Of a stretch of DNA of 32,000 nucleotides, positions 7,194 through 29,390 are shown piece by piece (the stretch's first letter is position 1; every line of letters starts with the position of its first letter). A program made the position numbers and the translations under genes. Source of the stretch: Psychrobacter sp. DM4 (lineage in GTDB: Bacteria > Pseudomonadota > Gammaproteobacteria > Pseudomonadales > Moraxellaceae); the NCBI RefSeq assembly GCF_051307035.1, contig NZ_CP195536.1, positions 1 to 32,000 on the forward strand. Direction: 5' to 3'. Below the pieces are notes generated by a model. It did no database searches and was not told the origin of the DNA. It was given only the letters and a program-made list of their open reading frames with translations.

Positions 7194-7289
7194 TGTTTGG
7201 AAGCACGTTCTTTAGAAGCGCATTACTTAGAAGCATAGTACTATTTTAGTATCTAAGATAATTACTGGTAAATAGTTTGGAGAGTGTCT

Positions 7290-8798
7290 ATGTTAGATGA
7301 TCAACAAAAAGCTTGTCTGTCAAAATTACCCAAAGCGACTTTGGTTGATTTTATAGCCAATGTTCAGGGTATGGATAAACTATTAGATAAGAAAATTGAG
7401 CGCCTACTACTACAGTCGGATAAGCCTAAACTTATTAAGAAACTAACCTCTACCTTAAAGGGGTTAAGACGCCGCCGAAAAACTCTAAATTACTGGGAAT
7501 ATAACGACTTTGTCACTGAGCTGCATTATTTAACTGATGATGTGATGAGTCTTTATCCCGAACAGCCCCAAGAGTGCCTGATATTGCTTGAGTTATATAT
7601 GGAATCTACAGATTCTAGTATGGAGCGGGTGGATGATTCAACAGGAGAGATTAGCTCAATATACTCTCGTTTGACCTCATTATGGTTGCAGGTCGCGGCG
7701 CGTTGCTATGAGCAAGAAAAGCAGGATGTTGCCGTAGATGAGCAGGATATCTTGACGCAATCTTGGATATACAAGATCAAGGCTATGATAGATGATAATG
7801 AATACGGCACTAAAGATAATTTGCTACGTCATGTTAATCAGTTGTTCTCCACCTCTGAGCTTGAGAGTCTTGTTGAAGATTATAAGTATGATTACCAGAC
7901 TTTGCTCACTGAATCGTTTAACACTAGTGACAACGAGGAGAAGGGCAATGCTTTTAGCGCCTCAATGATGAGCGCCAATAGCTTACAAAAAAGAAGTTTG
8001 GAGCACGGACTAATAGAGTTGGCTTGGGCGTTAGCAGACATAACCAACTTTGAAGAGATATATGTATACTTGAGTGATAAGAGGCAGTTCTCATCAAACG
8101 AGTTCGATAAACTTATACAGTTTTTGCTCGATCAAGACGCTTATGAGGTTGCGCTACGTTATCTAAATGAGGATTGGCCAGGTCATAATGATATAGCAAA
8201 TACGCAAACAAATTTTAAAGCCTTTAGCTTACAGCGTCTAGACTGGCTGAGCATGATACATAGTAAACAAGCTGATACTGAGGCACTTTATAGTGTCTTA
8301 CTCGCTGCATTTGAGTTAGAGCCTTCTTATACGCGTTTTAGACAAGTGATGACTATCGCCAGTCCTGCTCAGCAAGCTCATATGCGCAAACGAGCGGTTG
8401 AGATTGCTGATGGGCAAGAAAACGTTATTATGGCGGTAGATTTATGGCTTGAGATAGGGGATTTCAAACGAGCTACGCAAGTCGCTAGTGCTCGTTATCA
8501 GGAGTTTGACTATGAGCACTATACGACACTAACGCAATGGCTGAAACGTCTTCCTGATGATACTAATCTTATTCGAGTAATGGTTTATCGTAGTTTACTC
8601 GATGATATTTTAGATAACGATCGCACGATGGCTTATGGACATGCTACCCGATATTACAAACATTTAACTAAGCTAAACGTCTTTATAGATATATCGGTCG
8701 AGGGCTATCAGAACCTGACTAGTCATCAAGATTATTTGGAATCACTGCAAAACGCGCACAGCAAAAAGCATAGCTTTTGGGAGAGGGTAGCGTATTAG
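7290..8798 (+). CDS. Hypothetical protein, predominantly helical, no motif recognised
   Basis: Long uninterrupted ORF with composition like the core genes. The ORF opens with GTG at 7284. GGAGAG at 7278-7283 favours the ATG at 7290. I could not recognise any catalytic or binding motif. Confidence 0.75.
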   Translation: MLDDQQKACLSKLPKATLVDFIANVQGMDKLLDKKIERLLLQSDKPKLIKKLTSTLKGLRRRRKTLNYWEYNDFVTELHYLTDDVMSLYPEQPQECLILLELYMESTDSSMERVDDSTGEISSIYSRLTSLWLQVAARCYEQEKQDVAVDEQDILTQSWIYKIKAMIDDNEYGTKDNLLRHVNQLFSTSELESLVEDYKYDYQTLLTESFNTSDNEEKGNAFSASMMSANSLQKRSLEHGLIELAWALADITNFEEIYVYLSDKRQFSSNEFDKLIQFLLDQDAYEVALRYLNEDWPGHNDIANTQTNFKAFSLQRLDWLSMIHSKQADTEALYSVLLAAFELEPSYTRFRQVMTIASPAQQAHMRKRAVEIADGQENVIMAVDLWLEIGDFKRATQVASARYQEFDYEHYTTLTQWLKRLPDDTNLIRVMVYRSLLDDILDNDRTMAYGHATRYYKHLTKLNVFIDISVEGYQNLTSHQDYLESLQNAHSKKHSFWERVAY

Positions 8799-8844: not shown

Positions 8845-8860
8845 GGTTCCATGTGAAACT
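8845..8860. other. parS: Degenerate parS-like site (GGTTCCATGTGAAACT)
   Basis: 13/16 match to TGTTNCACGTGAAACA. It is intergenic, just upstream of the mntP remnant. Confidence 0.45.
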
Positions 8861-8883
8861 TTATATAGATAAAATAGAAAAAA

Positions 8884-9302
8884 ATGATCGAAGTTATATT
8901 GCTCGCTATTGCCCTAGCGATGGATGCGTTTGCCGTATCCATTGGATTGGGAGCGAAATGCTTTATGAAGCGTTTAACGCTACTACTGAGGTGGACATAA
9001 CTGATGCAGATTTTAGTCTGAACGATAGTACTGGTAATATCTATCATAAAGTCAGTCATCGCACCTTTCTTATCCTAGCTATCGCTACGAGTATCGATGC
9101 TATGGCTGTAGGATTTACGCTAAACTTGCTCTCTTTACATGCTTGGCTAGCGTGTGTAATCATAGCTATTATTACCGCTGGCTTTGGCTTTTTTGGAGTG
9201 TATCTCGGTCAAAAATCAGGAACTTGGCTTGAAGATAAGGCAGAATTATTGGGCGGTGTAGTACTTATCGGTATCGGACTAAAGATAATGTTTCTCGGCT
9301 AA
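8884..9302 (+). pseudogene. mntP: Manganese efflux pump MntP, disrupted by an internal deletion plus frameshift
   Basis: Frame 1 from ATG 8884 gives 'MIEVILLAIALAMDAFAVSIGLGAK...', the MntP TM1 'MDAFA' motif, and stops at 8998-9000. The C-terminal half 'LAIATSIDAMAVG...KAELLGGVVLIGIGLKIMFLG' is in another frame, the 8853..9302 ORF. The total span is about 140 codons against about 188 for intact MntP, so roughly TM2-TM3 are missing. Confidence 0.8.
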
Positions 9303-10659: not shown

Positions 10660-11490
10660 ATGACCACAACTATAAAGGATAAGGCTATGACTACGCAAAA
10701 TAATAACGCCGCAGACCATCGCATCACCTATGAGACCGATGGATATATCTGTCTCATAGGCCTAAATCGCGCGGATAAGCGCAATGCTTTTGATAGTCAT
10801 ATGATTGAGCAACTCTCCAAAGCATTGACTCGTTACGACAACAATGAGAGTTTGCGCTGTGCACTTATATTCGCTCATGGCGACCATTTTACCGCAGGTT
10901 TAGATCTAATGGAGCTACAGGACAAATGGGACAAAGGTGCCTTTGAATTTGATGATAGCCAAATCGACCCTTGGGGTATCGGCGGCAAGTTACGTAGTAA
11001 ACCTATTGTCGTTGCGATACAAGGCACTTGCTTTACCGCGGGCATTGAGCTGATGCTAAATAGTGACGTGGTTATTGCTAGTGACAATTGCAACTTTGCG
11101 CAAATGGAAGTCCAGCGCGGTATCATGCCGTTTGGCGGCGCGACCGTACGATTTGTCGCGGCTGCTGGCTGGCAAAAAGCTATGCCTTACTTGCTTACGG
11201 GTAAGCCATTCGATGCGCAAACCGCTGACAGGTTGAATCTAGTGAGCGAAGTGGTGCCAAATGGGGAAGAGTATAAACGAGCTTTGACTATCGCAAAAGA
11301 GATTTGCACGGCTGCACCGCTTGGCGTAAAAGGGCTGTTGTCCTCAGCACAAGATGCCAGCCGTAATGGCGCAAAAGCGGCACTGGCCAATATCCATAGC
11401 TATCTACCGCATTTGTTTTATTCAGAAGATGCAAAAGAGGGCGCAATGGCAATGGTTGAAAGGCGCGAGGCTGAGTTTACAGGACGTTAG
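10660..11490 (+). CDS. Enoyl-CoA hydratase/isomerase (crotonase) family protein
   Basis: 276 aa with a crotonase fold signature: 'NRADKRNAFD', 'FTAGLDL', 'AIQGTCFTAGIELMLNSD', 'EGAMAMVERR'. The start could instead be the ATG at 10687. Confidence 0.88.
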   Translation: MTTTIKDKAMTTQNNNAADHRITYETDGYICLIGLNRADKRNAFDSHMIEQLSKALTRYDNNESLRCALIFAHGDHFTAGLDLMELQDKWDKGAFEFDDSQIDPWGIGGKLRSKPIVVAIQGTCFTAGIELMLNSDVVIASDNCNFAQMEVQRGIMPFGGATVRFVAAAGWQKAMPYLLTGKPFDAQTADRLNLVSEVVPNGEEYKRALTIAKEICTAAPLGVKGLLSSAQDASRNGAKAALANIHSYLPHLFYSEDAKEGAMAMVERREAEFTGR

Positions 11491-11581: not shown

Positions 11582-13267
11582 CTACCAAGCAAAAGTTACC
11601 CCGCCGCGCGCGCCGACTTTACCTGTATCAAGACCAAATCCTGCGCCCGCTGAAATCGTCATGCTATCGCTGACGCGTCCAGCAAATGAGGTGCTTAGCG
11701 CTGAGCCATTGTTATAGTATCCTGTACCGAACGTCATAGCGTAGCGCTTGCCTGAAGGTATGACTGGGGTCTCTAACGATAATGCCATCGCGATACCGTC
11801 TTCGGCTTCATCCAAGCGTTCTTCGTGACGGTTGTACTCGCTACGCAAATTCCCAATCTCTCTTGAGTTGTTCGCTGATGCTGTATTTAAATTAGCAACT
11901 TGGGTGTTGGTGTTAGCAAGCTGATTGGCCGTAGCTAGTGAGTCTACGGTGACACTAGCGCCCAAAGTACCGTTACCATCGGTAGTGACGATACTAGTCG
12001 ATCCTGTCTGTGAGGCGGTGCTGGCTTGTATTTGACCTACTCCACCAAGGGCAATCTGGTTATCGTTCGCAGCTGAAGATTGATTACCGATAGCGATACT
12101 GTTTAAGCCACCTGCTGCTGCCGCTTCACCGACTGCGGTAGAGCGTACACCAGTTGCTGATGCCAAATGACCGAACGCTTGTGCGCGCTCAGCACTGGCA
12201 GTCGACTGCCAACCTACTGCGGTAGCGCCAGCTTGCGTGGCTTGAGCTTGAGCGCCAATGGCTGTCGAGGACGTACCAGAAGCAGTCGTTTGACGGACAC
12301 CACTTCTATCTCCTCCTATAGCAACGCCATCAAGACCTGAAGCGACTGAGTTATTACCGATAGCAATTGCATTATCCGATGACGCTGCTGCTGCTTCACC
12401 AACTGCCGTAGAACGCAAACCGCTGGCATTGGCTAAATGACCGAACGCTTGTGCGCGCTCAGCTGTAGCTTCTGAGCGCCAACCGATAGAGGTGGAGCCG
12501 ACGCCTGTGGCATTGGCTTGACCACCGACGGCGGTAGCCGAGTTATTGCCTGCGTTCGCTGTATTACCGATAGCGACGGTATCGTTATCGCCGCCAGCGA
12601 TTGCCGCTTCGCCTACTGCTAGCGATCTTATACCATTCGCCTGAGCCAAATGACCAAAAGCTTGAGCTCTTTCGGCGTTTGCCCCTGACTGCCAACCGAT
12701 CGCAGTTGCACCAGCACCCGTAGCGACTGACTCACCGCCAACTGCTGTTGTGGAGTTGCCTTGAGCACTGGCACCAGCACCAATGGCTACAGCATCGTTG
12801 CCATTTGCATTTGAACCAACACCGTCTTCGTCCAAGTTTCCATCATTGTTTGCGTCGTTGTTACCACCAATAGCGATCGCCCCATTGCCTGTAGCAGTTG
12901 CATCTTCACCAACGGCGACGGATTGAACACCGATTGCAGAAGTCTGATGCCCAAGCGCTGTTGAGCGATTTCCTTGAGTAACCGCCTGCCAACCGATAGC
13001 GGTTGCACCAGGACCACTTGCAGACGATTCACCGCCGACTGCGGTGGTTGAGTTACCATTTGCAGTTGAGTCTGTACCGACTGCGAGGGCATCTATGCCA
13101 GTTGCAGTTGCATTAACACCGCACTCTAAAGCAGTTATTTGATCGCCAGCATTACAGTCTGCAGTTCCATCAGCTGAGGCAGAAACCGATCCTAGCATTG
13201 CAGCGCTAACTGCTAGGGTAAGCGCACTGATCTTAAGTACTGATTTGGGTAGAAAGTCCGTTTTCAT
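11582..13267 (-). CDS. Trimeric autotransporter adhesin (YadA-like head repeats, short stalk, C-terminal membrane anchor)
   Basis: 561 aa. There is a signal peptide 'ALTLAVSAAMLGSVSASA' and repeated A/G/N-rich head units '..ERAQAFGHLA.A.G.RS.AVGEAA..'. A coiled-coil 'NLRSEYNRHEERLDEAEDGIAMALSLETP' is followed by a 4-strand beta anchor ending 'GARGGVTFAW', which is the YadA-anchor hallmark. Confidence 0.88.
   Translation of the reverse strand: MKTDFLPKSVLKISALTLAVSAAMLGSVSASADGTADCNAGDQITALECGVNATATGIDALAVGTDSTANGNSTTAVGGESSASGPGATAIGWQAVTQGNRSTALGHQTSAIGVQSVAVGEDATATGNGAIAIGGNNDANNDGNLDEDGVGSNANGNDAVAIGAGASAQGNSTTAVGGESVATGAGATAIGWQSGANAERAQAFGHLAQANGIRSLAVGEAAIAGGDNDTVAIGNTANAGNNSATAVGGQANATGVGSTSIGWRSEATAERAQAFGHLANASGLRSTAVGEAAAASSDNAIAIGNNSVASGLDGVAIGGDRSGVRQTTASGTSSTAIGAQAQATQAGATAVGWQSTASAERAQAFGHLASATGVRSTAVGEAAAAGGLNSIAIGNQSSAANDNQIALGGVGQIQASTASQTGSTSIVTTDGNGTLGASVTVDSLATANQLANTNTQVANLNTASANNSREIGNLRSEYNRHEERLDEAEDGIAMALSLETPVIPSGKRYAMTFGTGYYNNGSALSTSFAGRVSDSMTISAGAGFGLDTGKVGARGGVTFAW
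12040..13090 (-). repeat. Intragenic tandem repeats of the adhesin head (imperfect units of about 250-270 nt)
   Basis: Near-identical nucleotide blocks recur, for example 'aaatgaccgaacgcttgtgcgcgctcagc' at about 12166 and about 12436, with a diverged copy at about 12648. The boundaries given are approximate. Confidence 0.7.
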
Positions 13268-13749: not shown

Positions 13750-14574
13750 TTAGCGAACTGATTTGTAGTAGTCAACCAGCATAGTGCCCAAAGTGCCGTT
13801 GTCATCGATAGTCACAATTCTGACCGTACCTGACTGTGACGCGGTGCTCGATTGCACTTGACCGGCACTGCCTAAGACGACTTGGTTGTTGCCTGCTGCC
13901 ATTGCGCCATTACCGATAGCGATGCTGTTCATGCCGCCTGCCATAGATTTATTGCCTACCGCTACCGAATTTGCCCCTTGTGCGGCGGCCGCTTCACCGA
14001 CTGCGGTTGAGCGTACGCCACTAGCGTTGGCGATATGACCAAAAGCTTGCGCGCGTTCGGCAGTGGCTTTGGACTGCCAGCCGATAGAGGTAGAGCCGAG
14101 ACCTGCGGCATTGGCTTCACCGCCGACGGCCGTTGCTGAGTTGAGCCCCGCGTTGGCTTTATTACCGACAGCGACTGTGTCGTTAGTGCCGCCGGCCATA
14201 GCCGCTTCACCAACAGCGGTAGAACGTACGCCAGTTGCCGAGGCTAAATGACCAAAGGCTTGTGCGCGCTCGGCGGTGGCTTTAGACTGCCAACCGACAG
14301 ACGTTGAGCCAAGGCCTGCCGCGTTGGCTTGACCGCCAAGAGCAGTCGCTGAATTAAGACCTGCGTTCGCCATATTACCAATAGCAACGGTGTCATTAGT
14401 ACCACCAGACATAGTGCTATTGCCTAATGCAACGGCAGTACTGCTCATAGCGTTGGCAGTCATTGGTTGAGCCTCAGCGGCAGTGGTCATATTGGAGCAA
14501 GCAGCGACGCCTGCGATTGCTAAAGTCAGTACGCTCATTTTGAGTGCTGACTGTAGTGAAAAGTCCATTTTCAT
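13750..14574 (-). CDS. Anchorless paralog of the adhesin head (YadA-like repeats), probable lipoprotein
   Basis: It has the same repeat unit '..ERAQAFGHLASATGVRSTAVGEAA..' (71 aa / 213 nt period) but terminates at 'NGTLGTMLVDYYKSVR', where the neighbour's stalk begins. There is no coiled-coil or beta anchor. The signal peptide has a lipobox-like 'IAGVAAC'. The start is set at 14574 (MKMDF..) rather than the ORF opening at 14601, by homology with the neighbour's start context 'AAAGGATTTAA..ATGAAA'. Confidence 0.8.
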   Translation of the reverse strand: MKMDFSLQSALKMSVLTLAIAGVAACSNMTTAAEAQPMTANAMSSTAVALGNSTMSGGTNDTVAIGNMANAGLNSATALGGQANAAGLGSTSVGWQSKATAERAQAFGHLASATGVRSTAVGEAAMAGGTNDTVAVGNKANAGLNSATAVGGEANAAGLGSTSIGWQSKATAERAQAFGHIANASGVRSTAVGEAAAAQGANSVAVGNKSMAGGMNSIAIGNGAMAAGNNQVVLGSAGQVQSSTASQSGTVRIVTIDDNGTLGTMLVDYYKSVR

Positions 14575-14790
14575 AATATTAAATCCTTTTAGATAAGCCA
14601 TTTTGGCTCAGATAGTGGTTTAGGCGAATGCTAATAACTCACAAGTAGTGCAATATCAGCATACTTTGCATCAATAATTTGATGACATCTAGAGTCTGCA
14701 ACAGTAATGTAACATTAATTCTGGACCATCATGCAAGTAATGATAGTGTTAAACTCTCAAAGGTTATTTGAGCCGATAAATGGTTGGTTA
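14575..14790 (-). promoter_or_regulatory. Duplicated upstream leader/promoter region (copy 2)
   Basis: See 13268-13480. The homology is collinear over about 200 nt upstream of the start codon. Confidence 0.6.
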
Positions 14791-16046: not shown

Positions 16047-16229
16047 AAACTTATTAGGTTCAAAAGGCTGCTATTCTTGGCGCAAGAAGCTAGTCGTAAT
16101 GTCTTAGAAGTGGTACTTGCAAACATACATAGCCACCTACCACATTTATTACATTTGCAAGATATAGAAAAGGGTATGGTGGTGATGTTCGAAAGAGTAA
16201 ATTCAGGTTTCGTAGGTAGATGGTTTTAA
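16047..16229 (+). pseudogene. 3'-terminal fragment of a crotonase gene, paralogous to 10660-11490
   Basis: 'LLFLAQEASRN....LANIHSHLPHLLHLQDIEKGMVVMFERV' aligns with the last ~58 aa of the crotonase, 'LLSSAQDASRNGAKAALANIHSYLPHLFYSEDAKEGAMAMVERR'. The nucleotide alignment to 11337-11490 is also visible. About 218 codons of 5' sequence are absent. My count gives 63/160 = 39% GC. Confidence 0.8.
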
Positions 16230-16240
16230 AAACTCTTATT

Positions 16241-19123
16241 TCAGAGTTTAAAATAAACGTTTCCATGATTTAATTCTAACCATGCATCAACTATGAAGTA
16301 TCCGACTTCTTTTTTCTCTATTAATATATCTGGATCTACGTTATTCCAATCAAAGTAGTGTACAACCGTGCCCACTAGTTTTTCTTGTTCCAAAAACTTT
16401 ATTACTTCTTCTGGTTTTAATAATTCGGGTAATTCATTTGAAATTTTATTTTCTAAAATGTACCACTCTTTGTCCTCCCAGATGATGTTAAGCTTGTTTT
16501 GAAAACGTTTGGGTAAAAATGTTGGTTTACATATCTCTTCATAATCGTCAATACGTATAAATAGCCTTGAGCCAGACAAAAACTCTAGAAGGAAGTTCCC
16601 ATATAAGGCTCTATAATGATTTGTACTTGAAAACTCAAAGTAGTTTCTAACCCAATCTAGCCTACCAGATTTAGTATTACCAGGAACTTTAACAAAAGAG
16701 AAATCAGTGTAAAAACTGCTTAAAAGCTTTTTTTCTACAGTAGGACTATCATGGAATGGAATAATTTGAATTGAAGTTGGTTTGGATTTCACTATAGTTT
16801 GTTTATCTACTAGAGATATACCTTGTCTTGAAAACATAAAAGCACTAATGTAGCTATCTTTATGTCTACCAATTTCCCAGTTCAACCTTCTTAGGTTTAA
16901 AGTTTTCTTGATAGTATTTTCAACACTAATAAAGTCTGTTTTAGTAAAGCTTTCAAAGAAAACCTCTATGAGTTTATTTGTTACATCCTTACTTACTTTG
17001 CTTATAAAGCTTGCGTTTGAGTACGTAAGGCTAGTTCTCTGTATATCAAGCGGTACTCGCCCGTCTTGGTCATAAACTACTACAGTTGGATCTTCTGGAG
17101 TTAGTATTTGATGTCCTCTATTCCAAAGGAATTGTATGTTGCTATTGTATTTGACTGAATTTATGAATATACCATTGCATATCAATACTGAGAAATACTT
17201 GTTTGAATGATATTCACTATCTTTAGTTTCGAAACCTTCGTATGACCAAACTACATCGTCAAGTCCTTCAGTTTCCACTCTAAACCAGTTAGTGCCCTCT
17301 AAATTACTTCTAGATTGTGGAACTACTATATTTTGATCCAGAAACTTCGTATGTTTCTCGATAGAACCATTTACCTTAATCAGCTTTCTCTTTACTTTAG
17401 GCACTGATAAACAGTACCAATCCCAAGACTTCGGATTTTTGCTTAAATAATAAACAATATTTTTACTTGTCTTAATTGATATTCTAGTACCTATATGACA
17501 ATTAGTATGAGATATAGTTACAGACTTACTGCCTCGACTACATCGAAACTTCAAACCCTCATGTTCTGGACAACTAATGTGTCTAGTTTCAACCTCTAGT
17601 TCATCACCTAATAGATAAGCTGCTAATAGTCCGATGCCAAATCTTCCAGTACGATGAATGTCTGACCTGCCGTCAGTTTCATGAGTTTTCTTCCATCTAT
17701 CGCTATTTCTAAATGAAGCACCAATGTTCAAAAAGTAGTTTTCAATGATGTCAAGTGTCATACCGACACCGTAATCCTCTACAATCACTTCTCCATAATT
17801 TTCATGTTCAATGACAGATACGCAGACATCGTAGTCATCAGGTTTATCAACAGTAATACCTTGCTTACTGCTTATATCATCAACCTCTAGACATGCATCA
17901 ACCGCATTCTGTACTAACTCTCGAATACCAATTTCAGGTTTATCGCCATAAAGTGGCGCAATTAATAGCTCCATCATTTCTGAATCAGCAGTACGGAATT
18001 TTAAGACTTTTGGAATAAAATCAGGTTTTTTATCTTCAATATAAGTATTGATATCATCTAGTGATGAACGCAAACGACGAATATTGATACCCAAGTTAGA
18101 CATTTCATCGTATCTTCCATAGACTTCACCTAATACAGCCCAAACTTCGTCTAGTTCCCTCTGGATATCACTAAAAAGCCATCTTAAATCTTCAAAAATA
18201 AGTGCATTTTGAGGTTCAGCATCAATAAATAACGCTTCCGGATCTTCGTCTGCATGACTAATCTCTAGAATGGCATCGTGTTTTTTCCACTCACCTTTAG
18301 ATATAGGACTAATTAACGACTTGACGTTCAATAATTGTGAAGGTGCTCTGGTTGCTTGCACTTGAATATAATCAGAGATACGTAGTACAGACATTAAAAA
18401 TGGGACATGAGTATTTAGATGTATTCTTCTCTTTGGATAAGGAATTTTATCAACAGCTTGCCTCAACGACATATTATGACTTTTAGCGATAAAGCCACAT
18501 AAGTCTAAGAAGTGTCTTTTGGGTTCGTCAGATAGCTTAAGAGTTTTTCCATCAGTTCCTGGTACACCGTTAAAAACAATCTCATGCGCAATTCGAGCAT
18601 GATGTCTTCTAACAAATTCACCTATTAGTAATTTATCCCTAGTTGTTAGCTCTATTTTGTTTGCTGGAATATCGCTTACAGGTTTGGTATCGTTGAAAAT
18701 TGATTTAAGCTTATCAGAGTTAAAACGTTTAGCTTCTGCGATATAGTCAGACCACGTTACACTCCATTTAGGTTCTTCACTGACGTATTGAGATTTGATT
18801 GGTGGATAGGTATCTCTTATAAGAGAATAGAACCCATCTTCTGTAATATGCATCGCACAATCATGAAGTAACACAGAAATTATCATTGCTGATACGTCTT
18901 CGGGCGTGATGTTATCCCAACTTTCGTCCGTAATAATACTTTCAGCTGTCGCTAAAACCTCATTCAAATGTATAAAGCTATGGTCAGTATATTCAGGAAA
19001 AAATACTGTTGTGTTCGCATCTAACCAAGGTTTCAGGTCACTTACACTAGCTAAGGTAAAAGAATGAATACTAGAGTCTTTTTTTAGTATCCTTTCCATC
19101 ATGTTAGGAATATTTATTGACAC
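16241..19123 (-). CDS. HD-domain phosphohydrolase fused to a GHKL (Hsp90/MORC-like, HATPase_c) ATPase, with an uncharacterised C-terminal ~400 aa
   Basis: 960 aa. HD motifs are 'DHSFIHLNEV', 'VLLHDCAMH', 'RRHHARIAHE' and 'RISDYIQV'. GHKL motifs are N-box 'IRELVQNAVDAC', G1 'VEDYGVGMT' and G2 'TGRFGIGLLAAY'. The GTG start at 19123 is preceded by AAGGA with a 6-nt spacer. Two 60-nt lines I counted give 30-32% GC. Confidence 0.85.
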   Translation of the reverse strand: MSINIPNMMERILKKDSSIHSFTLASVSDLKPWLDANTTVFFPEYTDHSFIHLNEVLATAESIITDESWDNITPEDVSAMIISVLLHDCAMHITEDGFYSLIRDTYPPIKSQYVSEEPKWSVTWSDYIAEAKRFNSDKLKSIFNDTKPVSDIPANKIELTTRDKLLIGEFVRRHHARIAHEIVFNGVPGTDGKTLKLSDEPKRHFLDLCGFIAKSHNMSLRQAVDKIPYPKRRIHLNTHVPFLMSVLRISDYIQVQATRAPSQLLNVKSLISPISKGEWKKHDAILEISHADEDPEALFIDAEPQNALIFEDLRWLFSDIQRELDEVWAVLGEVYGRYDEMSNLGINIRRLRSSLDDINTYIEDKKPDFIPKVLKFRTADSEMMELLIAPLYGDKPEIGIRELVQNAVDACLEVDDISSKQGITVDKPDDYDVCVSVIEHENYGEVIVEDYGVGMTLDIIENYFLNIGASFRNSDRWKKTHETDGRSDIHRTGRFGIGLLAAYLLGDELEVETRHISCPEHEGLKFRCSRGSKSVTISHTNCHIGTRISIKTSKNIVYYLSKNPKSWDWYCLSVPKVKRKLIKVNGSIEKHTKFLDQNIVVPQSRSNLEGTNWFRVETEGLDDVVWSYEGFETKDSEYHSNKYFSVLICNGIFINSVKYNSNIQFLWNRGHQILTPEDPTVVVYDQDGRVPLDIQRTSLTYSNASFISKVSKDVTNKLIEVFFESFTKTDFISVENTIKKTLNLRRLNWEIGRHKDSYISAFMFSRQGISLVDKQTIVKSKPTSIQIIPFHDSPTVEKKLLSSFYTDFSFVKVPGNTKSGRLDWVRNYFEFSSTNHYRALYGNFLLEFLSGSRLFIRIDDYEEICKPTFLPKRFQNKLNIIWEDKEWYILENKISNELPELLKPEEVIKFLEQEKLVGTVVHYFDWNNVDPDILIEKKEVGYFIVDAWLELNHGNVYFKL

Positions 19124-19193
19124 TGAAAATCCTTAACTTAACTGACTTTTATCATAAAGTCATCGATTGATATTTTGTGAAGCCGCCATAGAT

Positions 19194-19205
19194 TAACAGC
19201 TGTTA
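19194..19205. promoter_or_regulatory. Perfect 12-bp palindrome TAACAGCTGTTA upstream of the HD-GHKL gene (possible operator)
   Basis: Read directly from the sequence, about 70 bp upstream of the GTG start. A second small inverted repeat, gacttt-tatcat-aaagtc, lies at 19144-19161. Function is unknown. Confidence 0.3.
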
Positions 19206-19257
19206 GTTATATAAGTCATTGTAGCGAAGAGAACTAGAGTTGACTTGAATATTAGCG

Positions 19258-19373
19258 CGTAGGGTGGGTTAGCGCAAGCGTAACCCACCGAATTTATAAT
19301 CTTCAATTTTGATGGTGGGTTACGCTTTGTCGTCATTCTCTTCGAGAACTTGACAATGCTAACCCACCCTACG
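19258..19373. repeat. REP/MITE-like nested inverted repeat
   Basis: The outer perfect 16-bp inverted repeat is cgtagggtgggttagc (19258-19273) / gctaacccaccctacg (19358-19373). The inner perfect 12-bp inverted repeat is gcgtaacccacc (19278-19289) / ggtgggttacgc (19314-19325). The 9-mer GGTGGGTTA occurs four times, twice forward and twice reverse. Confidence 0.7.
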
Positions 19374-19461
19374 GCTTACGATGCATAACGAAACCCTGCT
19401 TGTTCTATAAAGGCTGCCCTAAAAAGCGGTTTAGCCGTGACTGACGCGGTATCCTGTGCGA

Positions 19462-19542
19462 CTAAGCGGGTTGCGGGCACTTGGCTAGAGGGGGTCGCTC
19501 GAATGTTGGAACGCCTCTAGCTTTAGTGCCCGCCACGCTTAG
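19462..19542. other. Long GC-rich three-segment hairpin (candidate structured RNA or recombination/repeat element)
   Basis: ctaagcg/cgcttag (7 bp), gcgggcact/agtgcccgc (9 bp) and ctagagg/cctctag (7 bp) stack with small internal loops around a 22-nt apical loop. All 23 pairs are Watson-Crick. No coding potential. Confidence 0.5.
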
Positions 19543-19649
19543 GGGTACAGACACAAGCAGAAGGCGCGATTAGCTCCCCAATATTATCAGCCAAAATCAT
19601 CCCACCTTTTAACTACTCCCAATACGCCGACACCTTAAACTCGCGCAGA

Positions 19650-27416: not shown

Positions 27417-29390
27417 ATGCAACGTGCATACTACTCAAACTCAATTCAAGATTTTTTATTGGAGTCCGAAGAGGGTATTCTAGGTCGATTAACAGCAAAT
27501 CATAGCAATAGAACACTTGAAGAATTACAGATCAATGCGTGGCGAAAACAAATCAAAGTTCTAAAAGACCAGCTCGCCTTATTTAAAGGACAAATCTATT
27601 TTGAATTTACCATACCTAGGATGGGTAAACGAGTAGACAATATAATTATCATAAATAATGTCATATTTGTCATTGAGTTCAAGGTTGGCGATGGAGGTTA
27701 TTCAAAACATGCTGTAGAACAGACTATTGATTACACCATTGATTTAAGGAATTTTCATGAGGGTAGTCATCATGCTAAATTAGTACCTATTTTGGTTGTC
27801 ACAGAAGCTAAGATCTCTCCAACTACAAGTGATCATACAACCATTATCAATCATCAAGATGTTGCCAAAACAAATCAATTCGATTTAGCCCAAACACTTA
27901 ATAAGTTTATAGATGGAGATACTCTAGCTATCGATGTAGCACGTTGGCAAAATTCAATCTACAAGCCTACTCCGACGATTGTTGAAGCCGCTCAGGCTCT
28001 ATATAAAGGTCATAATGTTAAAGAAATCACACGATCAGACTCAGGCGCTATCAACCTTGGCAAGACGACTGATCAAATCAATCGAATAATTGAGGTATCA
28101 AAGCGCAATAAAAGGAAATCCATTTGCTTTGTTACAGGTGTACCTGGTGCTGGTAAAACCTTGGCTGGTTTAAATATTGCTGTCGAGCGAATGAAGGCTG
28201 ATGAAGAGGAACATGCGGTTTTTCTCTCTGGTAATGGTCCTTTGGTTGATGTATTGCGAGAGGCTTTAACGAGAGACTCTGTAGATATATCTAAGCAGAC
28301 AGGGGACAAGCTTACCAAGAAGCAAGCTGCTATAAAGGCAAATGCCTTTATACAAAACATTCATCACTTCAGAGATGATAATTTAAAGTCTGATAATGCT
28401 CCAACTGAGAAGGTTGTCGTATTTGATGAAGCACAAAGAGCTTGGACTAAAGCGCAAGCAAACTCTTTTATGAAGAGAAAAAAAGGCATTGAAAACTTTA
28501 ATATGTCAGAACCTGAGTTTTTGATTAAGGTTATGAACAGACACCCTGACTGGTGCACCATTGTTTGTTTGATTGGGGGTGGACAAGAGATTAACACTGG
28601 AGAAGCTGGATTAGAGGAATGGGTAAACTCACTAAAAAATAGCTTCCCAAATTGGGATGTCCACTACTCAAACTTAATTATTGATAGCGATAATTATATC
28701 AAATCTAAAAGCGCAAAAAATTGGTTGATAGAGAAAGGCCATAGTAAACCTGAACTACATCTAGCTGTATCAGTTAGATCATTTCGGTCTGAGAAGCTAG
28801 CTTACTTTATTCACGAACTTTTAGATCTGAATGGAGAGGTTGCTAAAAGTGTTTATGCGCAGATTAAAATAGACTACCCTATTTTTATCACAAGAGACAT
28901 TGACACTGCTAAAAACTGGCTACGAAATCAAGCAAAAGGAAGCGAGAGAATTGGGTTGATTAGTTCGTCTGGCGCTAAAAGGTTAAGACCTTTAGGTATA
29001 GATGTTAAAAACACAATCTCAGCACCTAGTTGGTTTTTAAATGATAGTAGGGATATTCGTTCATCTTACTTTTTAGAAGAGGTAGCGACCGAGTTTGATA
29101 TTCAAGGTTTAGAAATTGATTGGGCATGCGTTGCTTGGGGTGGTAATTTTCATATAAAAAACGATAGTTGGCAGTATCTAAATTTTAAAGGCACTAAATG
29201 GCAAGTAATTGGCCAAGATATAGCTAAGGAGTATTTAAAAAATACTTATCGTGTTCTACTTACTAGGGCTAGACAAGGTATGATTATTTTTGTGCCTGAA
29301 GGAAGTACTCTTGATCATACAAGACCGAAAGAATACTACGACGATACTTGGAACTATTTAAAATCAGTTGGAGTTCAAGAGTTGAAGTAG
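27417..29390 (+). CDS. DUF2075-type P-loop NTPase/SF1-like helicase with an N-terminal PD-(D/E)xK-like nuclease module
   Basis: 657 aa. The N-terminus 'YFEF..GKRVDNIIII..VIEFKVG' fits an E...D...ExK pattern. It also has Walker A 'GVPGAGKT', Walker B 'VVVFDEAQRAW' and C-terminal 'YRVLLTRARQGMIIFVP'. The RBS is AAGGAAG. One line I counted gives about 33% GC. Confidence 0.82.
   Translation: MQRAYYSNSIQDFLLESEEGILGRLTANHSNRTLEELQINAWRKQIKVLKDQLALFKGQIYFEFTIPRMGKRVDNIIIINNVIFVIEFKVGDGGYSKHAVEQTIDYTIDLRNFHEGSHHAKLVPILVVTEAKISPTTSDHTTIINHQDVAKTNQFDLAQTLNKFIDGDTLAIDVARWQNSIYKPTPTIVEAAQALYKGHNVKEITRSDSGAINLGKTTDQINRIIEVSKRNKRKSICFVTGVPGAGKTLAGLNIAVERMKADEEEHAVFLSGNGPLVDVLREALTRDSVDISKQTGDKLTKKQAAIKANAFIQNIHHFRDDNLKSDNAPTEKVVVFDEAQRAWTKAQANSFMKRKKGIENFNMSEPEFLIKVMNRHPDWCTIVCLIGGGQEINTGEAGLEEWVNSLKNSFPNWDVHYSNLIIDSDNYIKSKSAKNWLIEKGHSKPELHLAVSVRSFRSEKLAYFIHELLDLNGEVAKSVYAQIKIDYPIFITRDIDTAKNWLRNQAKGSERIGLISSSGAKRLRPLGIDVKNTISAPSWFLNDSRDIRSSYFLEEVATEFDIQGLEIDWACVAWGGNFHIKNDSWQYLNFKGTKWQVIGQDIAKEYLKNTYRVLLTRARQGMIIFVPEGSTLDHTRPKEYYDDTWNYLKSVGVQELK

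What the first reader, a model, noticed from the sequence alone, without database searches (positions are those of the whole stretch)
16241..19123. Low-GC single-gene island encoding an HD phosphohydrolase fused to an Hsp90/MORC-like GHKL ATPase: candidate uncharacterised defence/conflict system
The sequence shows a 960-aa ORF with three regions.
1. An N-terminal HD module, with 'HLNEV', 'LLHDCAMH', 'RRHHARIAHE' and 'ISDYIQV'.
2. A central GHKL ATPase with all three diagnostic boxes: 'ELVQNAVDA', 'DYGVGMT' and 'GRFGIGLL'.
3. About 400 C-terminal residues in which I recognise nothing.

Lines I counted inside the gene are 30-32% GC. One line of the adjacent FGGY kinase gene is 58%.

The gene sits between conserved metabolic genes. 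On its left is a truncated crotonase gene remnant. On its right is a 526-bp non-coding stretch containing a REP-like nested inverted repeat and a 23-bp hairpin.

From established knowledge, GHKL ATPases (MORC/paraMORC, Hsp90-like) act as ATP-driven clamps or sensors in prokaryotic conflict systems, and HD domains act as nucleases or (d)NTP hydrolases in immunity.

My inference is that this is a self-contained ATP-gated effector, with the unknown C-terminal domain as the sensor. I cannot place the architecture in any named defence system from memory.
Basis: partly seen in the sequence, partly recalled or inferred. Interest (0 to 1): 0.86.

Follow-up and report, generated by a model that had tools for sequence, protein, structure and literature searches.

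The report
HD effector fused to Hsp90-like ATPase
A horizontally acquired single gene in a Psychrobacter chromosome encodes an HD "conflict-effector" phosphohydrolase fused to an Hsp90-type ATPase, a kind of candidate anti-phage protein that comparative genomics has already predicted but that, as far as I could find, nobody has tested.

Summary
A 960-aa ORF (16241-19123, minus strand) has 34.7% GC against 44.7% for the rest of the window. It carries Pfam PF24391 "HD-CE" (residues 42-325, E=1e-36) and a GHKL ATPase. The ATPase is Hsp90-type, not MORC-type. The "unrecognised" C-terminus is probably an Hsp90 middle-domain-like region (weak fold evidence; invariant N650, D685, R696) followed by a fast-evolving ~240-residue tail.

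It is a stand-alone gene: no neighbouring family recurs in ~75 loci from many phyla. It is mobile. Its GC is below that of its flanks in 69 of 72 loci. In the window it moved as a 3.2-kb cassette with a fragment of its former neighbour, and a related strain has the empty site. Elsewhere it lies in a lambdoid prophage, beside a filamentous prophage, or between Drt8 and a helicase-nuclease. The HD and ATPase catalytic residues are intact in 72-73 of 73 homologues.

Best explanation: an Hsp90-switched, nucleotide-degrading immune effector. This class was predicted by Nicastro et al. 2023 (recalled from memory; the paper was not readable here). No PADLOC v2 model matches it, and I found no experimental test. 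It is a typical member of a predicted kind, so interest is moderate.

The parts
16241..19123 (-). Complete gene for the 960-aa HD-CE / Hsp90-like fusion protein. GTG start; stop codon at 16241-16243.
   Evidence: ORF and translation. 100% identical to an NCBI protein of Psychrobacter sp. DM4. dN/dS 0.09 against the L001 orthologue.
18149..19000 (-). HD-CE phosphohydrolase domain (residues 42-325). Metal and catalytic candidates are H48, H52, H87-D88 (18860-18865), H175, H216 and D251. Conserved arginines are R172, R221, R248 and R259.
   Evidence: Pfam PF24391, E=1.3e-36. These residues are present in 72-73 of 73 homologues from many phyla. No solved relative was detectable by sequence.
17438..18148 (-). 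Conserved linker (residues 326-369) and Hsp90-type N-terminal ATPase domain (residues 370-562). Motif I is E402/N406 (17906-17920), motif II is D450-G452-G454, the G2 box is G493-RFGIG-498, and motif IV is G545-T546.
   Evidence: PF13589. NCBIfam HtpG and HSP90 partial matches over residues 375-562. PDB profile hits to GRP94, HtpG and Hsp90 at E~1e-17, including the Hsp90-specific N-terminal strand/helix. hhalign against E. coli HtpG gives 98% probability. All motifs are invariant in 73 of 73 homologues.
16952..17437 (-). Conserved block (residues 563-724), probably the first part of an Hsp90 middle-domain-like region. It includes the loop D685-x5-P691-L-D-I-Q-R696; the R696 codon is 17036-17038.
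   Evidence: N650, D685 and R696 are invariant in 73 of 73. Full-length Hsp90 structures align over 490-510 columns. The C-terminal-only model has Hsp90/HtpG middle domains as its best matches, but only at E 0.013-0.35. Sequence profiles of this block alone are NOT significant against Hsp90.
16244..16951 (-). Fast-evolving C-terminal tail (residues 725-960), a mixed alpha/beta region of unassigned fold. It is the proposed specificity/sensor part and possibly the dimerisation part.
   Evidence: Column conservation is 0.19-0.25 here against 0.46-0.65 in the enzymatic domains. Identity to distant homologues is 19% against ~60%. dN is 4-8 times that of the N-terminal half. The last ~1 kb is 89-93% nt identical to L001, against 79-85% upstream.
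19124..19254 (-). 130-nt leader that travels with the gene. It presumably holds the promoter; an AAGGA ribosome-binding site lies 7 nt before the GTG.
   Evidence: It lies inside the 3193-nt block shared with L001 (window 19254-16071, 83.5% identity). Sequence read. The promoter scan was no better than chance.
16062..16229 (+). Remnant of the 3' end of an enoyl-CoA hydratase (ECH) gene, carried along with the cassette. It marks the gene's former neighbourhood.
   Evidence: It aligns with the 3' end of the full-length ECH genes that flank the orthologue in L001, L013 and L059. It is 71% nt identical to the window's own ECH. The full-length ECH lies at 10660-11490.
19255..19649 (.). Window-specific structured spacer between the cassette and the FGGY gene. 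It contains a REP-like nested inverted repeat (19258-19373), which starts 4 nt from the cassette edge, and a long G+C-rich hairpin (~19445-19545).
   Evidence: It is absent from L001, where the FGGY and aminotransferase genes are 30 nt apart. Inverted repeats. MFE -161 kcal/mol. No Rfam family.

Best explanation
The gene encodes a self-contained, single-protein immune (anti-phage / anti-mobile-element) effector of the 'Hsp90-coupled conflict effector' kind.

Shown here:
- An intact HD-CE phosphohydrolase domain is fused, through a conserved linker, to an Hsp90-type ATPase.
- Both catalytic centres are essentially invariant across phyla.
- The gene is a horizontally moving, stand-alone cassette.
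- Its C-terminal third diversifies and recombines.

Inferred mechanism:
- The Hsp90-like module works as an ATP-driven conformational switch and sensor, in the way STAND/NLR NTPases do.
- The middle-domain-like block and the variable tail bind an infection-derived 'client', most plausibly a phage protein.
- This drives or stalls the ATP-dependent closing and N-terminal dimerisation cycle typical of Hsp90.
- Because the HD-CE domain sits directly N-terminal to the ATPase domain, closing brings or rearranges two HD-CE domains and releases their activity.
- The active HD-CE then hydrolyses free nucleotides (dNTP/NTP or a related pool). Replication of the invader stops, and growth of the cell probably stops too (abortive infection).
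For: Domain identity:
- PF24391 HD-CE, E=1e-36, plus PF13589.
- 'CE' means conflict effector, and the sister Calcineurin-CE family has been shown experimentally to deplete dNTPs in phage defence (PMC12871103).
- The ATPase is Hsp90-type.

Both activities are needed:
- H48, H52, H87, D88, H175, H216 and D251 are intact in 72-73 of 73 homologues.
- E402, N406, D450, G452, G454, G493, G496, G498, G545, T546 and R696 are intact in 73 of 73.
- dN/dS is 0.09.

Stand-alone gene:
- No recurrent neighbour in ~75 loci.
- Intergenic gaps are tight in Enterobacter.

Mobile and accessory:
- 155 relatives among 185,579 species representatives, across many phyla, and only two Psychrobacter representatives among the 80 best.
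- GC is below the flanks in 69 of 72 loci, median -7.5 points, p=2e-13.
- The window and L001 are reciprocal empty sites.
- No match in 5,426 E. coli genomes, searched by DNA similarity (blastn) with the Enterobacter gene.

Conflict contexts in some loci:
- Inside a lambdoid prophage.
- Beside a filamentous prophage.
- Between a PDC-S37/Hhe-like helicase-nuclease and Drt8.
- In this window, 8.3 kb from a full-length PDC-S41 candidate gene.

Sensor-like evolution of the C-terminus:
- 19% identity against ~60% in the enzymatic domains.
- dN is 4-8 times higher.
- The C-terminal ~1 kb was exchanged recently, while flanking housekeeping genes are saturated at dS 1.6-1.9.
Against: - There is no experimental evidence for defence, for nucleotide hydrolysis or for any trigger.
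- No PADLOC v2 model matches.
- Most loci are solitary insertions among housekeeping genes. Only 1 of 25 loci examined closely had clear defence neighbours within three genes. My near-versus-far PADLOC comparison (142 against 14 families) is confounded, because a few proteins hit many models each.
- The family is nearly absent from phage and plasmid collections.
- The HD-CE substrate is unknown. No solved relative exists, and HD domains can also be nucleases.
- The middle-domain assignment rests on predicted structure. Sequence profiles of that region alone are not significant, and the short loop motif also matches ankyrin repeats by chance.
- The key paper (Nicastro et al. 2023, NAR 51:11479) could not be read here. 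What I say about it is from memory.
Confidence: 0.55

Rival explanations
1. Same defensive role but a different chemistry. The HD domain is a nuclease, as in Cas3, and the GHKL module is an ATP-driven DNA clamp, as in MORC/paraMORC, MutL or the GHKL-Shedu protein VcSduA. Invading DNA or RNA is cut rather than nucleotide pools being drained.
For: Single-protein GHKL-plus-nuclease defence proteins exist (VcSduA; PMC12137116). The weak PADLOC and NCBIfam matches of the GHKL region are to type II restriction enzymes of the BbrUII/HgiDII kind. The HD-CE substrate is untested, and no structure is available.
Against: The ATPase is Hsp90-type. All significant PDB and NCBIfam matches are Hsp90, HtpG, GRP94 or TRAP1. 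Two topoisomerase VI subunit B models gave only marginal matches (E 5e-4 and 0.12). No MutL, GyrB or MORC transducer domain appeared among the fold matches of the C-terminal half. The HD domain falls in the HD-CE family; its sister CE family acts on nucleotides. Several invariant arginines around the HD site (R172, R221, R248, R259) fit phosphate-rich small substrates, though this is only suggestive.
Confidence: 0.17
2. Not immunity. The protein is an accessory stress or proteostasis factor, a specialised Hsp90 paralogue whose HD domain hydrolyses a signalling nucleotide (for example an alarmone or a cyclic nucleotide), linking protein-folding stress to nucleotide signalling.
For: The Hsp90-type ATPase has all catalytic motifs. 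Three Psychrobacter species keep the gene next to the same ECH gene. Most neighbours are housekeeping genes. Some sources annotate homologues as 'molecular chaperone HtpG'.
Against: It scores far below the HtpG equivalog cut-off (78.5 bits against 371). Its distribution is very sparse and patchy. It has foreign composition in 69 of 72 loci. It relocates within the genus and occurs inside prophages. The C-terminal region diversifies and recombines, which is unusual for a housekeeping chaperone.
Confidence: 0.1
3. A selfish or element-serving gene rather than a host defence: a prophage or island 'moron' that excludes competing elements, or that stabilises its carrier by harming cells that lose it.
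For: It sits inside a lambdoid prophage at a moron-like position and next to a filamentous prophage. It moves as a compact cassette.
Against: No antitoxin-like partner is conserved, although ORFs under 70 aa were not clustered; in Enterobacter the 84- and 103-nt gaps leave little room for one. Only 2 of 2.9 million viral contigs carry it, and no plasmid has a close homologue. This reading largely overlaps with the best explanation in mechanism.
Confidence: 0.1

Closest known systems
Hsp90-coupled nucleotide-targeting 'conflict effector' systems predicted by Nicastro, Burroughs, Iyer & Aravind 2023 (NAR 51:11479). Pfam PF24391 HD-CE derives from that work (recalled from memory; the paper is not held in the library).
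   Same: An HD-CE effector domain fused to an HSP90-related ATPase module in one polypeptide. Sporadic, horizontally transferred distribution. The predicted logic is that the NTPase acts as the switch and the CE domain as a nucleotide-degrading effector.
   Different: Nothing distinguishes the window's protein from the bulk of this family; it has more than 1,300 homologues with the same two Pfam domains. Added here: invariance of R696, N650 and D685, the conservation gradient, recent exchange of the C-terminal module, and the cassette boundaries.
Canonical Hsp90 / HtpG chaperones
   Same: A Bergerat ATP-binding fold with motifs I-IV. The Hsp90-specific N-terminal strand/helix. Similar overall module length (585 aa against 624 aa for E. 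coli HtpG). Predicted-structure alignment over ~500 columns. A candidate catalytic-loop arginine at a similar distance from motif I (294 residues; about 324 in HtpG, from my own knowledge of HtpG numbering).
   Different: Well below the HtpG equivalog score (78.5 bits against 371). It has an N-terminal HD-CE domain. The region after the ATPase domain is not detectably similar in sequence. The last ~240 residues are hypervariable. It is accessory and mobile rather than core.
PUA-Calcineurin-CE-HAD system (PMC12871103)
   Same: It uses a 'CE' phosphoesterase effector coupled to a sensor. It has been shown experimentally to abort phage infection by collapsing dNTP pools. It is the only tested relative of the CE-effector concept that I could read.
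   Different: A different effector fold (calcineurin-like rather than HD). A different sensor (a PUA domain binding m6-dAMP). Two genes and filament assembly rather than one Hsp90-fused protein.
HD-domain dNTPases in immunity: bacterial dGTPases, Clover CloA (PMC12265719) and SAMHD1
   Same: An HD phosphohydrolase that restricts viruses by depleting dNTPs. Activity is controlled by oligomeric state and nucleotide ligands.
   Different: No detectable sequence relationship to solved dGTPase or SAMHD1 structures. Regulation here would come from a fused Hsp90-type ATPase, not from allosteric nucleotides or an accessory nucleotidyltransferase.
VcSduA / paraMORC3-type Shedu (PMC12137116)
   Same: A single polypeptide combining a GHKL ATPase, thought to gate the effector, with an effector domain. 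The ATPase and effector mutants that were tested both abolish defence.
   Different: The GHKL there is N-terminal and MORC-like, and the effector is a DUF4263 PD-(D/E)xK nuclease. Here the effector is N-terminal HD-CE and the GHKL is Hsp90-type.
Phage RIIA proteins
   Same: After a giant-virus Hsp90, they are the best structural matches to the model among viral proteins (E ~1e-10 to 1e-11 over 400-650 columns). They also have a GHKL/Hsp90-like core and take part in phage-host conflict (T4 rII against Rex; own knowledge).
   Different: They are phage-encoded, lack an HD domain, and act on the phage's side. Whether the resemblance has any functional meaning was not tested.

Membership tests
Pfam PF24391 HD-CE (HD 'conflict effector' domain) | Match to the family model above its curated gathering score | tested here: met
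   127.1 bits against a cut-off of 27; E=1.3e-36; residues 42-325 cover profile positions 1-262 of 263.
Pfam PF24391 HD-CE (HD 'conflict effector' domain) | Intact HD-superfamily metal-binding and catalytic residues (H...HD...H...D) | tested here: met
   H48, H52, H87 and D88 are present in 72 of 73 homologues; H175, H216 and D251 in 73 of 73. All are present in the window's protein.
Pfam PF24391 HD-CE (HD 'conflict effector' domain) | Hydrolysis of free nucleotides as the effector activity | not testable with these tools
   There is no biochemical data and no solved relative (best PDB sequence match E=0.067). The prediction is taken from the family's authors, recalled from memory.
Hsp90 family (HtpG, Hsp90, GRP94, TRAP1) | GHKL/Bergerat ATP-binding motifs I-IV | tested here: met
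   E402, N406, D409, D450-G452-G454, G493-x2-G496-x-G498 and G545-T546 are invariant in 73 of 73. PF13589 is above its cut-off.
Hsp90 family (HtpG, Hsp90, GRP94, TRAP1) | Hsp90-specific N-terminal strand and helix preceding motif I, and best similarity to Hsp90 rather than to other GHKL clades | tested here: met
   The profile aligns 'PkvlkFrtadselleLliaPLYGdkPeiGiRELvqNavDA' to GRP94 '[39 protein letters not shown]'. The 60 PDB sequence hits listed (of 148 matched) are all Hsp90-family proteins. NCBIfam HtpG and HSP90 are the top matches. hhalign against E. coli HtpG gives 98% probability.
Hsp90 family (HtpG, Hsp90, GRP94, TRAP1) | Middle domain carrying the catalytic-loop arginine (yeast R380, 'LPLNxSRE') | tested here: inconclusive
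   For:
- R696, in 'PLDIQR', is invariant in 73 of 73.
- The full-length model aligns to full-length Hsp90 over 490-510 columns, with target-normalised TM up to 0.56-0.59 for N+M fragments.
- Hsp90/HtpG middle domains are the top matches of the C-terminal-only model.

Against:
- Those matches have E values of 0.013-0.35 and TM scores of 0.2-0.3.
- Profiles of this region alone find no Hsp90.
- The short motif also hits ankyrin repeats.
Hsp90 family (HtpG, Hsp90, GRP94, TRAP1) | Orthology with the housekeeping chaperone HtpG (NCBIfam equivalog cut-off) | tested here: not met
   NF003555 scores 78.5 bits against a cut-off of 371, and only over residues 375-562. The protein is a divergent paralogue, not HtpG.
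MORC / paraMORC / MutL-type GHKL ATPases | GHKL domain followed by an S5-fold transducer domain; best similarity to the MORC/MutL clade | tested here: not met
   No MORC or MutL family appears in the Pfam, NCBIfam or PADLOC results. No MutL, GyrB or MORC chains appear among the 50 best fold matches of either model.
Named or candidate defence systems in PADLOC-DB v2.0.0 (including Shedu, Tiamat and the PDC candidates) | Significant full-length match to a system protein model | tested here: not met
   Only short GHKL-motif matches were found: REase_II E=7e-5 over residues 429-539, and TmtA E=0.011 over 30 residues. DefenseFinder and later PADLOC releases could not be run.
Hsp90-coupled CE-effector immune systems (Nicastro et al. 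2023, computational class) | CE effector domain physically coupled to an HSP90-related NTPase module | tested here: met
   HD-CE and the Hsp90-type ATPase are fused in one ORF. The same two-domain architecture is seen in all 120 listed homologues.
Hsp90-coupled CE-effector immune systems (Nicastro et al. 2023, computational class) | Genomic behaviour of a conflict system: sporadic distribution, horizontal transfer, association with mobile elements or defence islands | tested here: inconclusive
   Sporadic distribution and transfer are met. It is found in a prophage, next to a prophage, and in one clear defence island. Most loci are solitary, and no statistically sound enrichment test was possible.
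Hsp90-coupled CE-effector immune systems (Nicastro et al. 2023, computational class) | Demonstrated protection against phages or other mobile elements | not testable with these tools
   No held paper reports a test.

The most novel reading that the evidence does not exclude
The Hsp90-like module is a true chaperone-fold pattern-recognition receptor. Its middle-domain-like block and hypervariable, recombining tail would capture a phage protein as a 'client' (for example an abundant, slowly folding structural protein). The client-dependent ATPase cycle would then license the fused HD-CE domain to drain nucleotide pools. This would be the first experimentally tractable case of an Hsp90 fold used as an innate immune sensor-switch in place of a STAND/NLR NTPase, with specificity reprogrammable by swapping the C-terminal module, as the DM4/L001 mosaic suggests happens in nature.
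Probability: 0.3. Interest if true: 0.75.

Novelty: new member of a known kind. Interest (0 to 1): 0.42.

Why it matters
If the prediction holds, this is a compact, one-gene immune system. A chaperone-type ATPase would replace the usual STAND/NLR switch, and an HD enzyme would starve the invader of nucleotides. That would add a new sensor principle to bacterial immunity and give a parallel to SAMHD1-like nucleotide depletion.

The family is widespread (more than 1,300 clusters at 90% identity, in many phyla) yet absent from PADLOC v2 and untested, so one positive phage assay would annotate thousands of genes.

The Psychrobacter alleles offer natural material for mapping the sensing part. They have conserved enzymatic halves (84-88% identical within the Psychrobacter clade) and divergent or recently exchanged C-terminal thirds.

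For genome annotation, the finding corrects labels such as 'chaperone protein HtpG' and 'HD domain-containing protein'.

Tried and rejected
Literature:
- Searches for 'HD-CE', PRTase-CE, iHD-CE, PF24391 and Hsp90 combined with defence terms returned noise or unrelated papers.
- The defining paper (PMC10681802 / 10.1093/nar/gkad879) is not held. Papers that cite it do not discuss the Hsp90 fusions.

Middle-domain sequence tests, all negative:
- hhalign of the C-terminal alignment against E. coli HtpG.
- hmmsearch of two C-terminal profiles against PDB sequences.
- hhalign of the cross-phylum block against HtpG, which placed the loop on HtpG's 'LPLNVSRE' but at 0.3% probability.

Other negative results:
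- The window protein's own contig is not on record, so its context had to come from the window and from relatives.
- No relative in 5,426 E. coli genomes by DNA similarity.
- No Rfam family in the window or in the structured spacer. No tRNA gene as an integration site.
- Promoter-like sites are at chance level and no terminator was predicted.

Weak or rejected lines:
- The PADLOC near-versus-far neighbour comparison (142 against 14 families) was discounted, because two or three proteins account for most of the hits.
- The MzaA hit in L015 is rpoD and so a false positive.
- A pseudogene or decaying remnant was rejected on dN/dS 0.09 and invariant catalytic residues.
- A conserved partner gene was rejected. 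ORFs under 70 aa were not clustered, but the Enterobacter gaps of 84 and 103 nt leave little room for one.

Full report
**1. The observation**

All seven quoted motifs are in its translation.

The GTG start is shared by three Psychrobacter orthologues. An AAGGA lies 7 nt upstream (sequence).

The gene is 34.7% G+C against 44.7% for the rest of the window. Inside it, 500-nt windows run from 31 to 39%; the neighbouring FGGY gene runs from 49 to 56%.

The protein is 100% identical to an NCBI entry from Psychrobacter sp. DM4 annotated 'HD domain-containing protein'.

**2. Domains**

*HD domain.* Pfam places residues 42-325 in PF24391 'HD-CE' (E=1.3e-36, full-length match). Residues 398-518 fall in PF13589 HATPase_c_3.

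- 'CE' stands for 'conflict effector'. I took that meaning from PMC12871103, which describes the sister family Calcineurin-CE and credits Nicastro et al. 2023.
- That HD-CE was defined in the same paper, and that the paper describes HSP90- and HSP70-related modules coupled to such effectors as analogues of STAND NTPases, is my recollection of its abstract. The paper itself is not held.

*ATPase.* It is Hsp90-type rather than MORC- or MutL-type.

- The best NCBIfam models are HtpG and 'HSP90 family protein', over residues 375-562.
- A family profile matches only Hsp90-family chains among the 60 PDB sequences listed (GRP94, HtpG, Hsp83, Hsp90-alpha; E about 1e-17). The match includes the Hsp90-specific N-terminal strand and helix before motif I.
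- hhalign against E. coli HtpG gives 98% probability.
- The protein is not an HtpG orthologue: it scores 78.5 bits against the equivalog cut-off of 371.

**3. The 'unrecognised' C-terminal 400 residues**

An AlphaFold2 model of the whole protein (mean pLDDT 83.8, pTM 0.69) aligns with full-length Hsp90, HtpG, TRAP1 and GRP94 structures.

- The alignments span 490-510 columns at E values down to 7e-16.
- Target-normalised TM scores reach 0.54-0.59 for N+M-domain fragments.
- That is more than the ~200-residue ATPase domain could give.

A separate model of residues 553-960 (pLDDT 79.9, pTM 0.82) was then searched on its own.

- Its best PDB matches are HtpG and yeast Hsp82.
- Isolated middle domains of HtpG and human Hsp90 also recur among its top 20.
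- These matches are weak: E 0.013-0.35, TM 0.2-0.3.

In the family profile search, the stretch 'fDqDgrlPlnleR' was laid on GRP94 'vDsD-dLPLNVSRE'. From established knowledge this is the middle-domain catalytic loop, whose arginine (R380 in yeast Hsp82) contacts the ATP gamma-phosphate.

- The corresponding R696 is invariant in 73 of 73 full-length homologues from many phyla, as are N650 and D685.
- Sequence evidence for this region on its own is not significant. Four tests failed, and the short motif also matches ankyrin repeats.

I therefore call residues 563-724 a probable Hsp90 middle-domain-like block. The fold is supported and the sequence statistics are inconclusive. I leave residues 725-960 unassigned.

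The whole Hsp90-like module (585 aa) is about as long as E. coli HtpG (624 aa).

**4. Conservation pattern**

Both catalytic centres are under strong constraint.

- HD residues H48, H52, H87 and D88 are present in 72 of 73 homologues. H175, H216 and D251, and arginines R172, R221 and R259, are present in 73 of 73.
- GHKL motifs I-IV are present in 73 of 73.

Identity to distant gamma- and betaproteobacterial homologues falls along the protein:

| Region | Identity |
|---|---|
| HD-CE | 61% |
| Linker | 64% |
| ATPase | 57% |
| Residues 553-700 | 35% |
| Residues 701-960 | 19% |

Homologues from other phyla align only over residues ~1-720.

Among four Psychrobacter alleles the gene is under purifying selection: dN/dS is 0.09 against L001. 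dN in the C-terminal half is 4-8 times that in the N-terminal half.

Against L001, the last ~1 kb of the gene (window ~16260-17260) is 89-93% identical at the nucleotide level, against 79-85% upstream.

- dS is 0.3-0.5 in that part, against 1.0-1.5 upstream.
- Seven flanking housekeeping genes of the same two strains are saturated at dS 1.6-1.9.

So the C-terminal module has been exchanged between lineages long after the genomes diverged. The breakpoint lies near the ATPase/middle-domain boundary.

**5. Genomic behaviour**

*Stand-alone gene.* I clustered all ORFs of at least 70 aa within 10 kb in ~75 non-redundant loci. No neighbouring family occurred in more than 3-4 loci, and those few are Psychrobacter synteny. 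In Enterobacter hormaechei only 84 and 103 nt separate the gene from maeA and from a Y1 (RAYT-type) transposase gene.

*Sparse and patchy distribution.*

- There are 155 relatives among 185,579 species representatives. They span Proteobacteria, Acidobacteriota, Bacteroidota, Myxococcota, Planctomycetota, Verrucomicrobiota, Chlorobi relatives and a Firmicute. Only two Psychrobacter representatives are among the 80 best.
- More than 1,300 homologous clusters exist in the large protein collection. All 120 listed have the same two Pfam domains.
- A blastn search with the Enterobacter gene found no match in 5,426 complete E. coli genomes.
- No close homologue was found in 72,556 plasmids or 50,697 phage records.
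- Only 2 of 2.9 million viral contigs carry it.

*Foreign composition.* The gene's G+C is below that of its flanks in 69 of 72 loci (median -7.5 points, down to -27; Wilcoxon p=2e-13).

**6. The window's locus**

The window lies next to the replication origin genes. Its gene order is:

- dnaA, dnaN, recF, gyrB
- DUF6880, MntP, an RNA methyltransferase
- ECH (full length, 10660-11490)
- two YadA-head repeat genes
- an aminotransferase
- the ECH fragment, then HD-Hsp90
- FGGY kinase, two FAD oxidoreductases, a cupin, guaA
- a Schlafen-type helicase

In three other Psychrobacter species the orthologue lies convergent to a full-length ECH gene.

In the window a 3.2-kb block is homologous to that arrangement in L001 (83.5% identity). 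It spans 16071-19254 and holds the gene, 130 nt of leader and ~170 nt of the ECH 3' end. Here it sits 5 kb away, between the convergent aminotransferase and FGGY genes.

In L001 those two genes are 30 nt apart. The window's own ECH is followed directly by a YadA-like gene. Each strain is therefore an empty site for the other's position.

The ECH fragment is in frame for ~57 codons but only 71% identical to the resident ECH. It is an old or imported copy, not a fresh duplication.

The upstream edge of the block (19254) lies 4 nt from a REP-like nested inverted repeat (19258-19373). This repeat is part of a 395-nt window-specific, highly structured spacer with no Rfam match.

**7. Contexts elsewhere**

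| Locus | Context |
|---|---|
| Aeromonas hydrophila | Solitary, next to cysS |
| Morganella morganii | Solitary, next to guaA |
| Vibrio diabolicus | Immediately after a filamentous prophage (Zot, Rep_trans, Phage_CRI) |
| IMG/VR contig L099 | Inside a lambdoid prophage, between the Q-region/lysis/terminase genes and DnaT/RecE-like genes; a moron-like position |
| Serratia isolate L016 | Probably the same prophage context as L099 |
| Acidobacteriota MAG L023 | Between a PDC-S37/Hhe-like helicase with an MTES_1575 nuclease domain and a Drt8 reverse transcriptase (E=2e-115) |
| Bacillus mycoides plasmid (distant relative, 23% identity) | Among 'beta family'/'sce7726 family' genes, DUF3800, an SMI1/KNR4 protein and IS3 fragments |

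Of 150 proteins within three genes in 25 loci, most are housekeeping.

The PADLOC comparison of near neighbours with far neighbours gave 142 against 14 families matched. It looks striking but is driven by a few proteins that hit dozens of models each. I treat the defence-island question as unresolved.

**8. Mechanism**

The following points are shown:

- the fusion;
- intact catalytic sites in both enzymatic parts, and their universal retention;
- the single-gene status;
- the mobility;
- the diversifying, recombining C-terminus.

The rest is inferred. The Hsp90-type module would act as an ATP-dependent switch whose middle region and variable tail recognise an infection signal. In Hsp90, ATP binding closes the dimer at the N-termini (established knowledge). 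The HD-CE domain is attached there through a conserved linker. Closure is therefore a natural way to assemble or release two HD-CE domains, which would then hydrolyse nucleotides and stop replication.

The nucleotide target is taken from the family authors' prediction and from the demonstrated dNTP depletion by the sister Calcineurin-CE effector. Defence dNTPases of the HD superfamily provide a precedent (PMC12265719). A nuclease activity cannot be excluded.

**9. Comparison with what is known, and novelty**

The architecture is that of a computationally described class, and its HD domain has a Pfam family of its own. So this is a typical member of a known (predicted) kind, not a new kind.

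It matches no PADLOC v2 model. I found no experimental study in the held literature.

This analysis adds four things:

- the Hsp90 (not MORC) identity of the ATPase, and the probable middle-domain nature of the region after it, with an invariant arginine;
- the steep conservation gradient;
- evidence for recent exchange of the C-terminal module;
- a precisely bounded 3.2-kb cassette with reciprocal empty sites.

**10. Verdict**

- Most likely it is an Hsp90-switched HD-CE nucleotide-depleting immune protein (confidence 0.55).
- Interest is 0.42. It is not surprising to a specialist, but it is a clean, compact and testable candidate from a large untested family.

Noticed in passing
window 27417-29390 (+): A second low-GC (35-39%) single gene lies directly after guaA. 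It is 657 aa and matches the PADLOC candidate system PDC-S41 end to end (E=8e-290), with a Schlafen group-3 helicase domain (PF09848). It lies 8.3 kb from the HD-Hsp90 gene, so this origin-proximal region holds at least two single-gene defence candidates.
   Followed up: partly
window 7284-8798 (+) and 8853-9302 (+): A 504-aa DUF6880 protein sits between gyrB and a short MntP ORF (149 aa, matching only profile positions 49-152). In the related strain L001, gyrB and a 193-aa MntP gene are adjacent. This looks like another strain-specific insertion that may have truncated mntP. It has no PADLOC match.
   Followed up: partly
window 19255-19649: A 395-nt spacer is absent from the related strain. 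It holds a perfect nested inverted repeat (REP-like, 19258-19373) that starts 4 nt from the edge of the transferred cassette, plus a long G+C-rich hairpin (~19445-19545). Its MFE is -161 kcal/mol and no Rfam family matches. It may be a REP/MITE-type element at a recombination junction. In Enterobacter the homologous gene is flanked by a RAYT-type Y1 transposase gene.
   Followed up: partly
full-length model of window 16241-19123 against the viral structure library: After a giant-virus Hsp90, the best structural matches among viral proteins are phage RIIA proteins ('protector from prophage-induced early lysis'), at E ~1e-10 to 1e-11 over 400-650 aligned columns. Whether RIIA-like proteins could mimic or antagonise Hsp90-type immune switches was not examined.
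   Followed up: no
window 11582-13267 (-) and 13750-14601 (-); L001, L013, L059: Two YadA-head-repeat (trimeric-autotransporter-like) ORFs are internally repetitive and high in GC. They differ in number, length and order among the four Psychrobacter loci, and the aminotransferase/YadA/HD-Hsp90 gene order is rearranged in each. This is a recombination-prone region close to the origin.
   Followed up: partly
L099 10001-12739 (IMG/VR UViG) and L016 (Serratia montpellierensis): The homologue (45% identical) lies inside a lambdoid prophage. On one side are DUF1367, DUF1133, lysozyme, a Ser/Thr kinase, a PP2C phosphatase and the small terminase subunit; on the other are DnaT-like and RecE-like genes. 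It sits at a moron-like position on the opposite strand.
   Followed up: partly
L023 4772-8050 and 13302-15866 (Acidobacteriota MAG): Here the homologue is flanked by a PDC-S37/Hhe-like helicase with an MTES_1575 nuclease domain and by a Drt8-type reverse transcriptase fused to a PNP_UDP phosphorylase domain (E=2e-115). It was the only clear defence island among the 25 loci examined closely.
   Followed up: partly
L098 7983-10484 (Bacillus mycoides plasmid p507): A distant relative (833 aa, ~23% identical over residues 1-516, annotated 'ATP-binding protein') lies next to 'beta family' and 'sce7726 family' genes, DUF3800, an SMI1/KNR4 protein and IS3 fragments. The HD + GHKL combination therefore also occurs on a Firmicute megaplasmid in an accessory region.
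   Followed up: no
L093 (Morganella morganii) and the window: In Morganella the homologue lies directly beside guaA. In the window guaA is 6.5 kb away and is itself followed by the PDC-S41 gene. The guaA 3' region may be a recurrent landing site for such single-gene islands.
   Followed up: no
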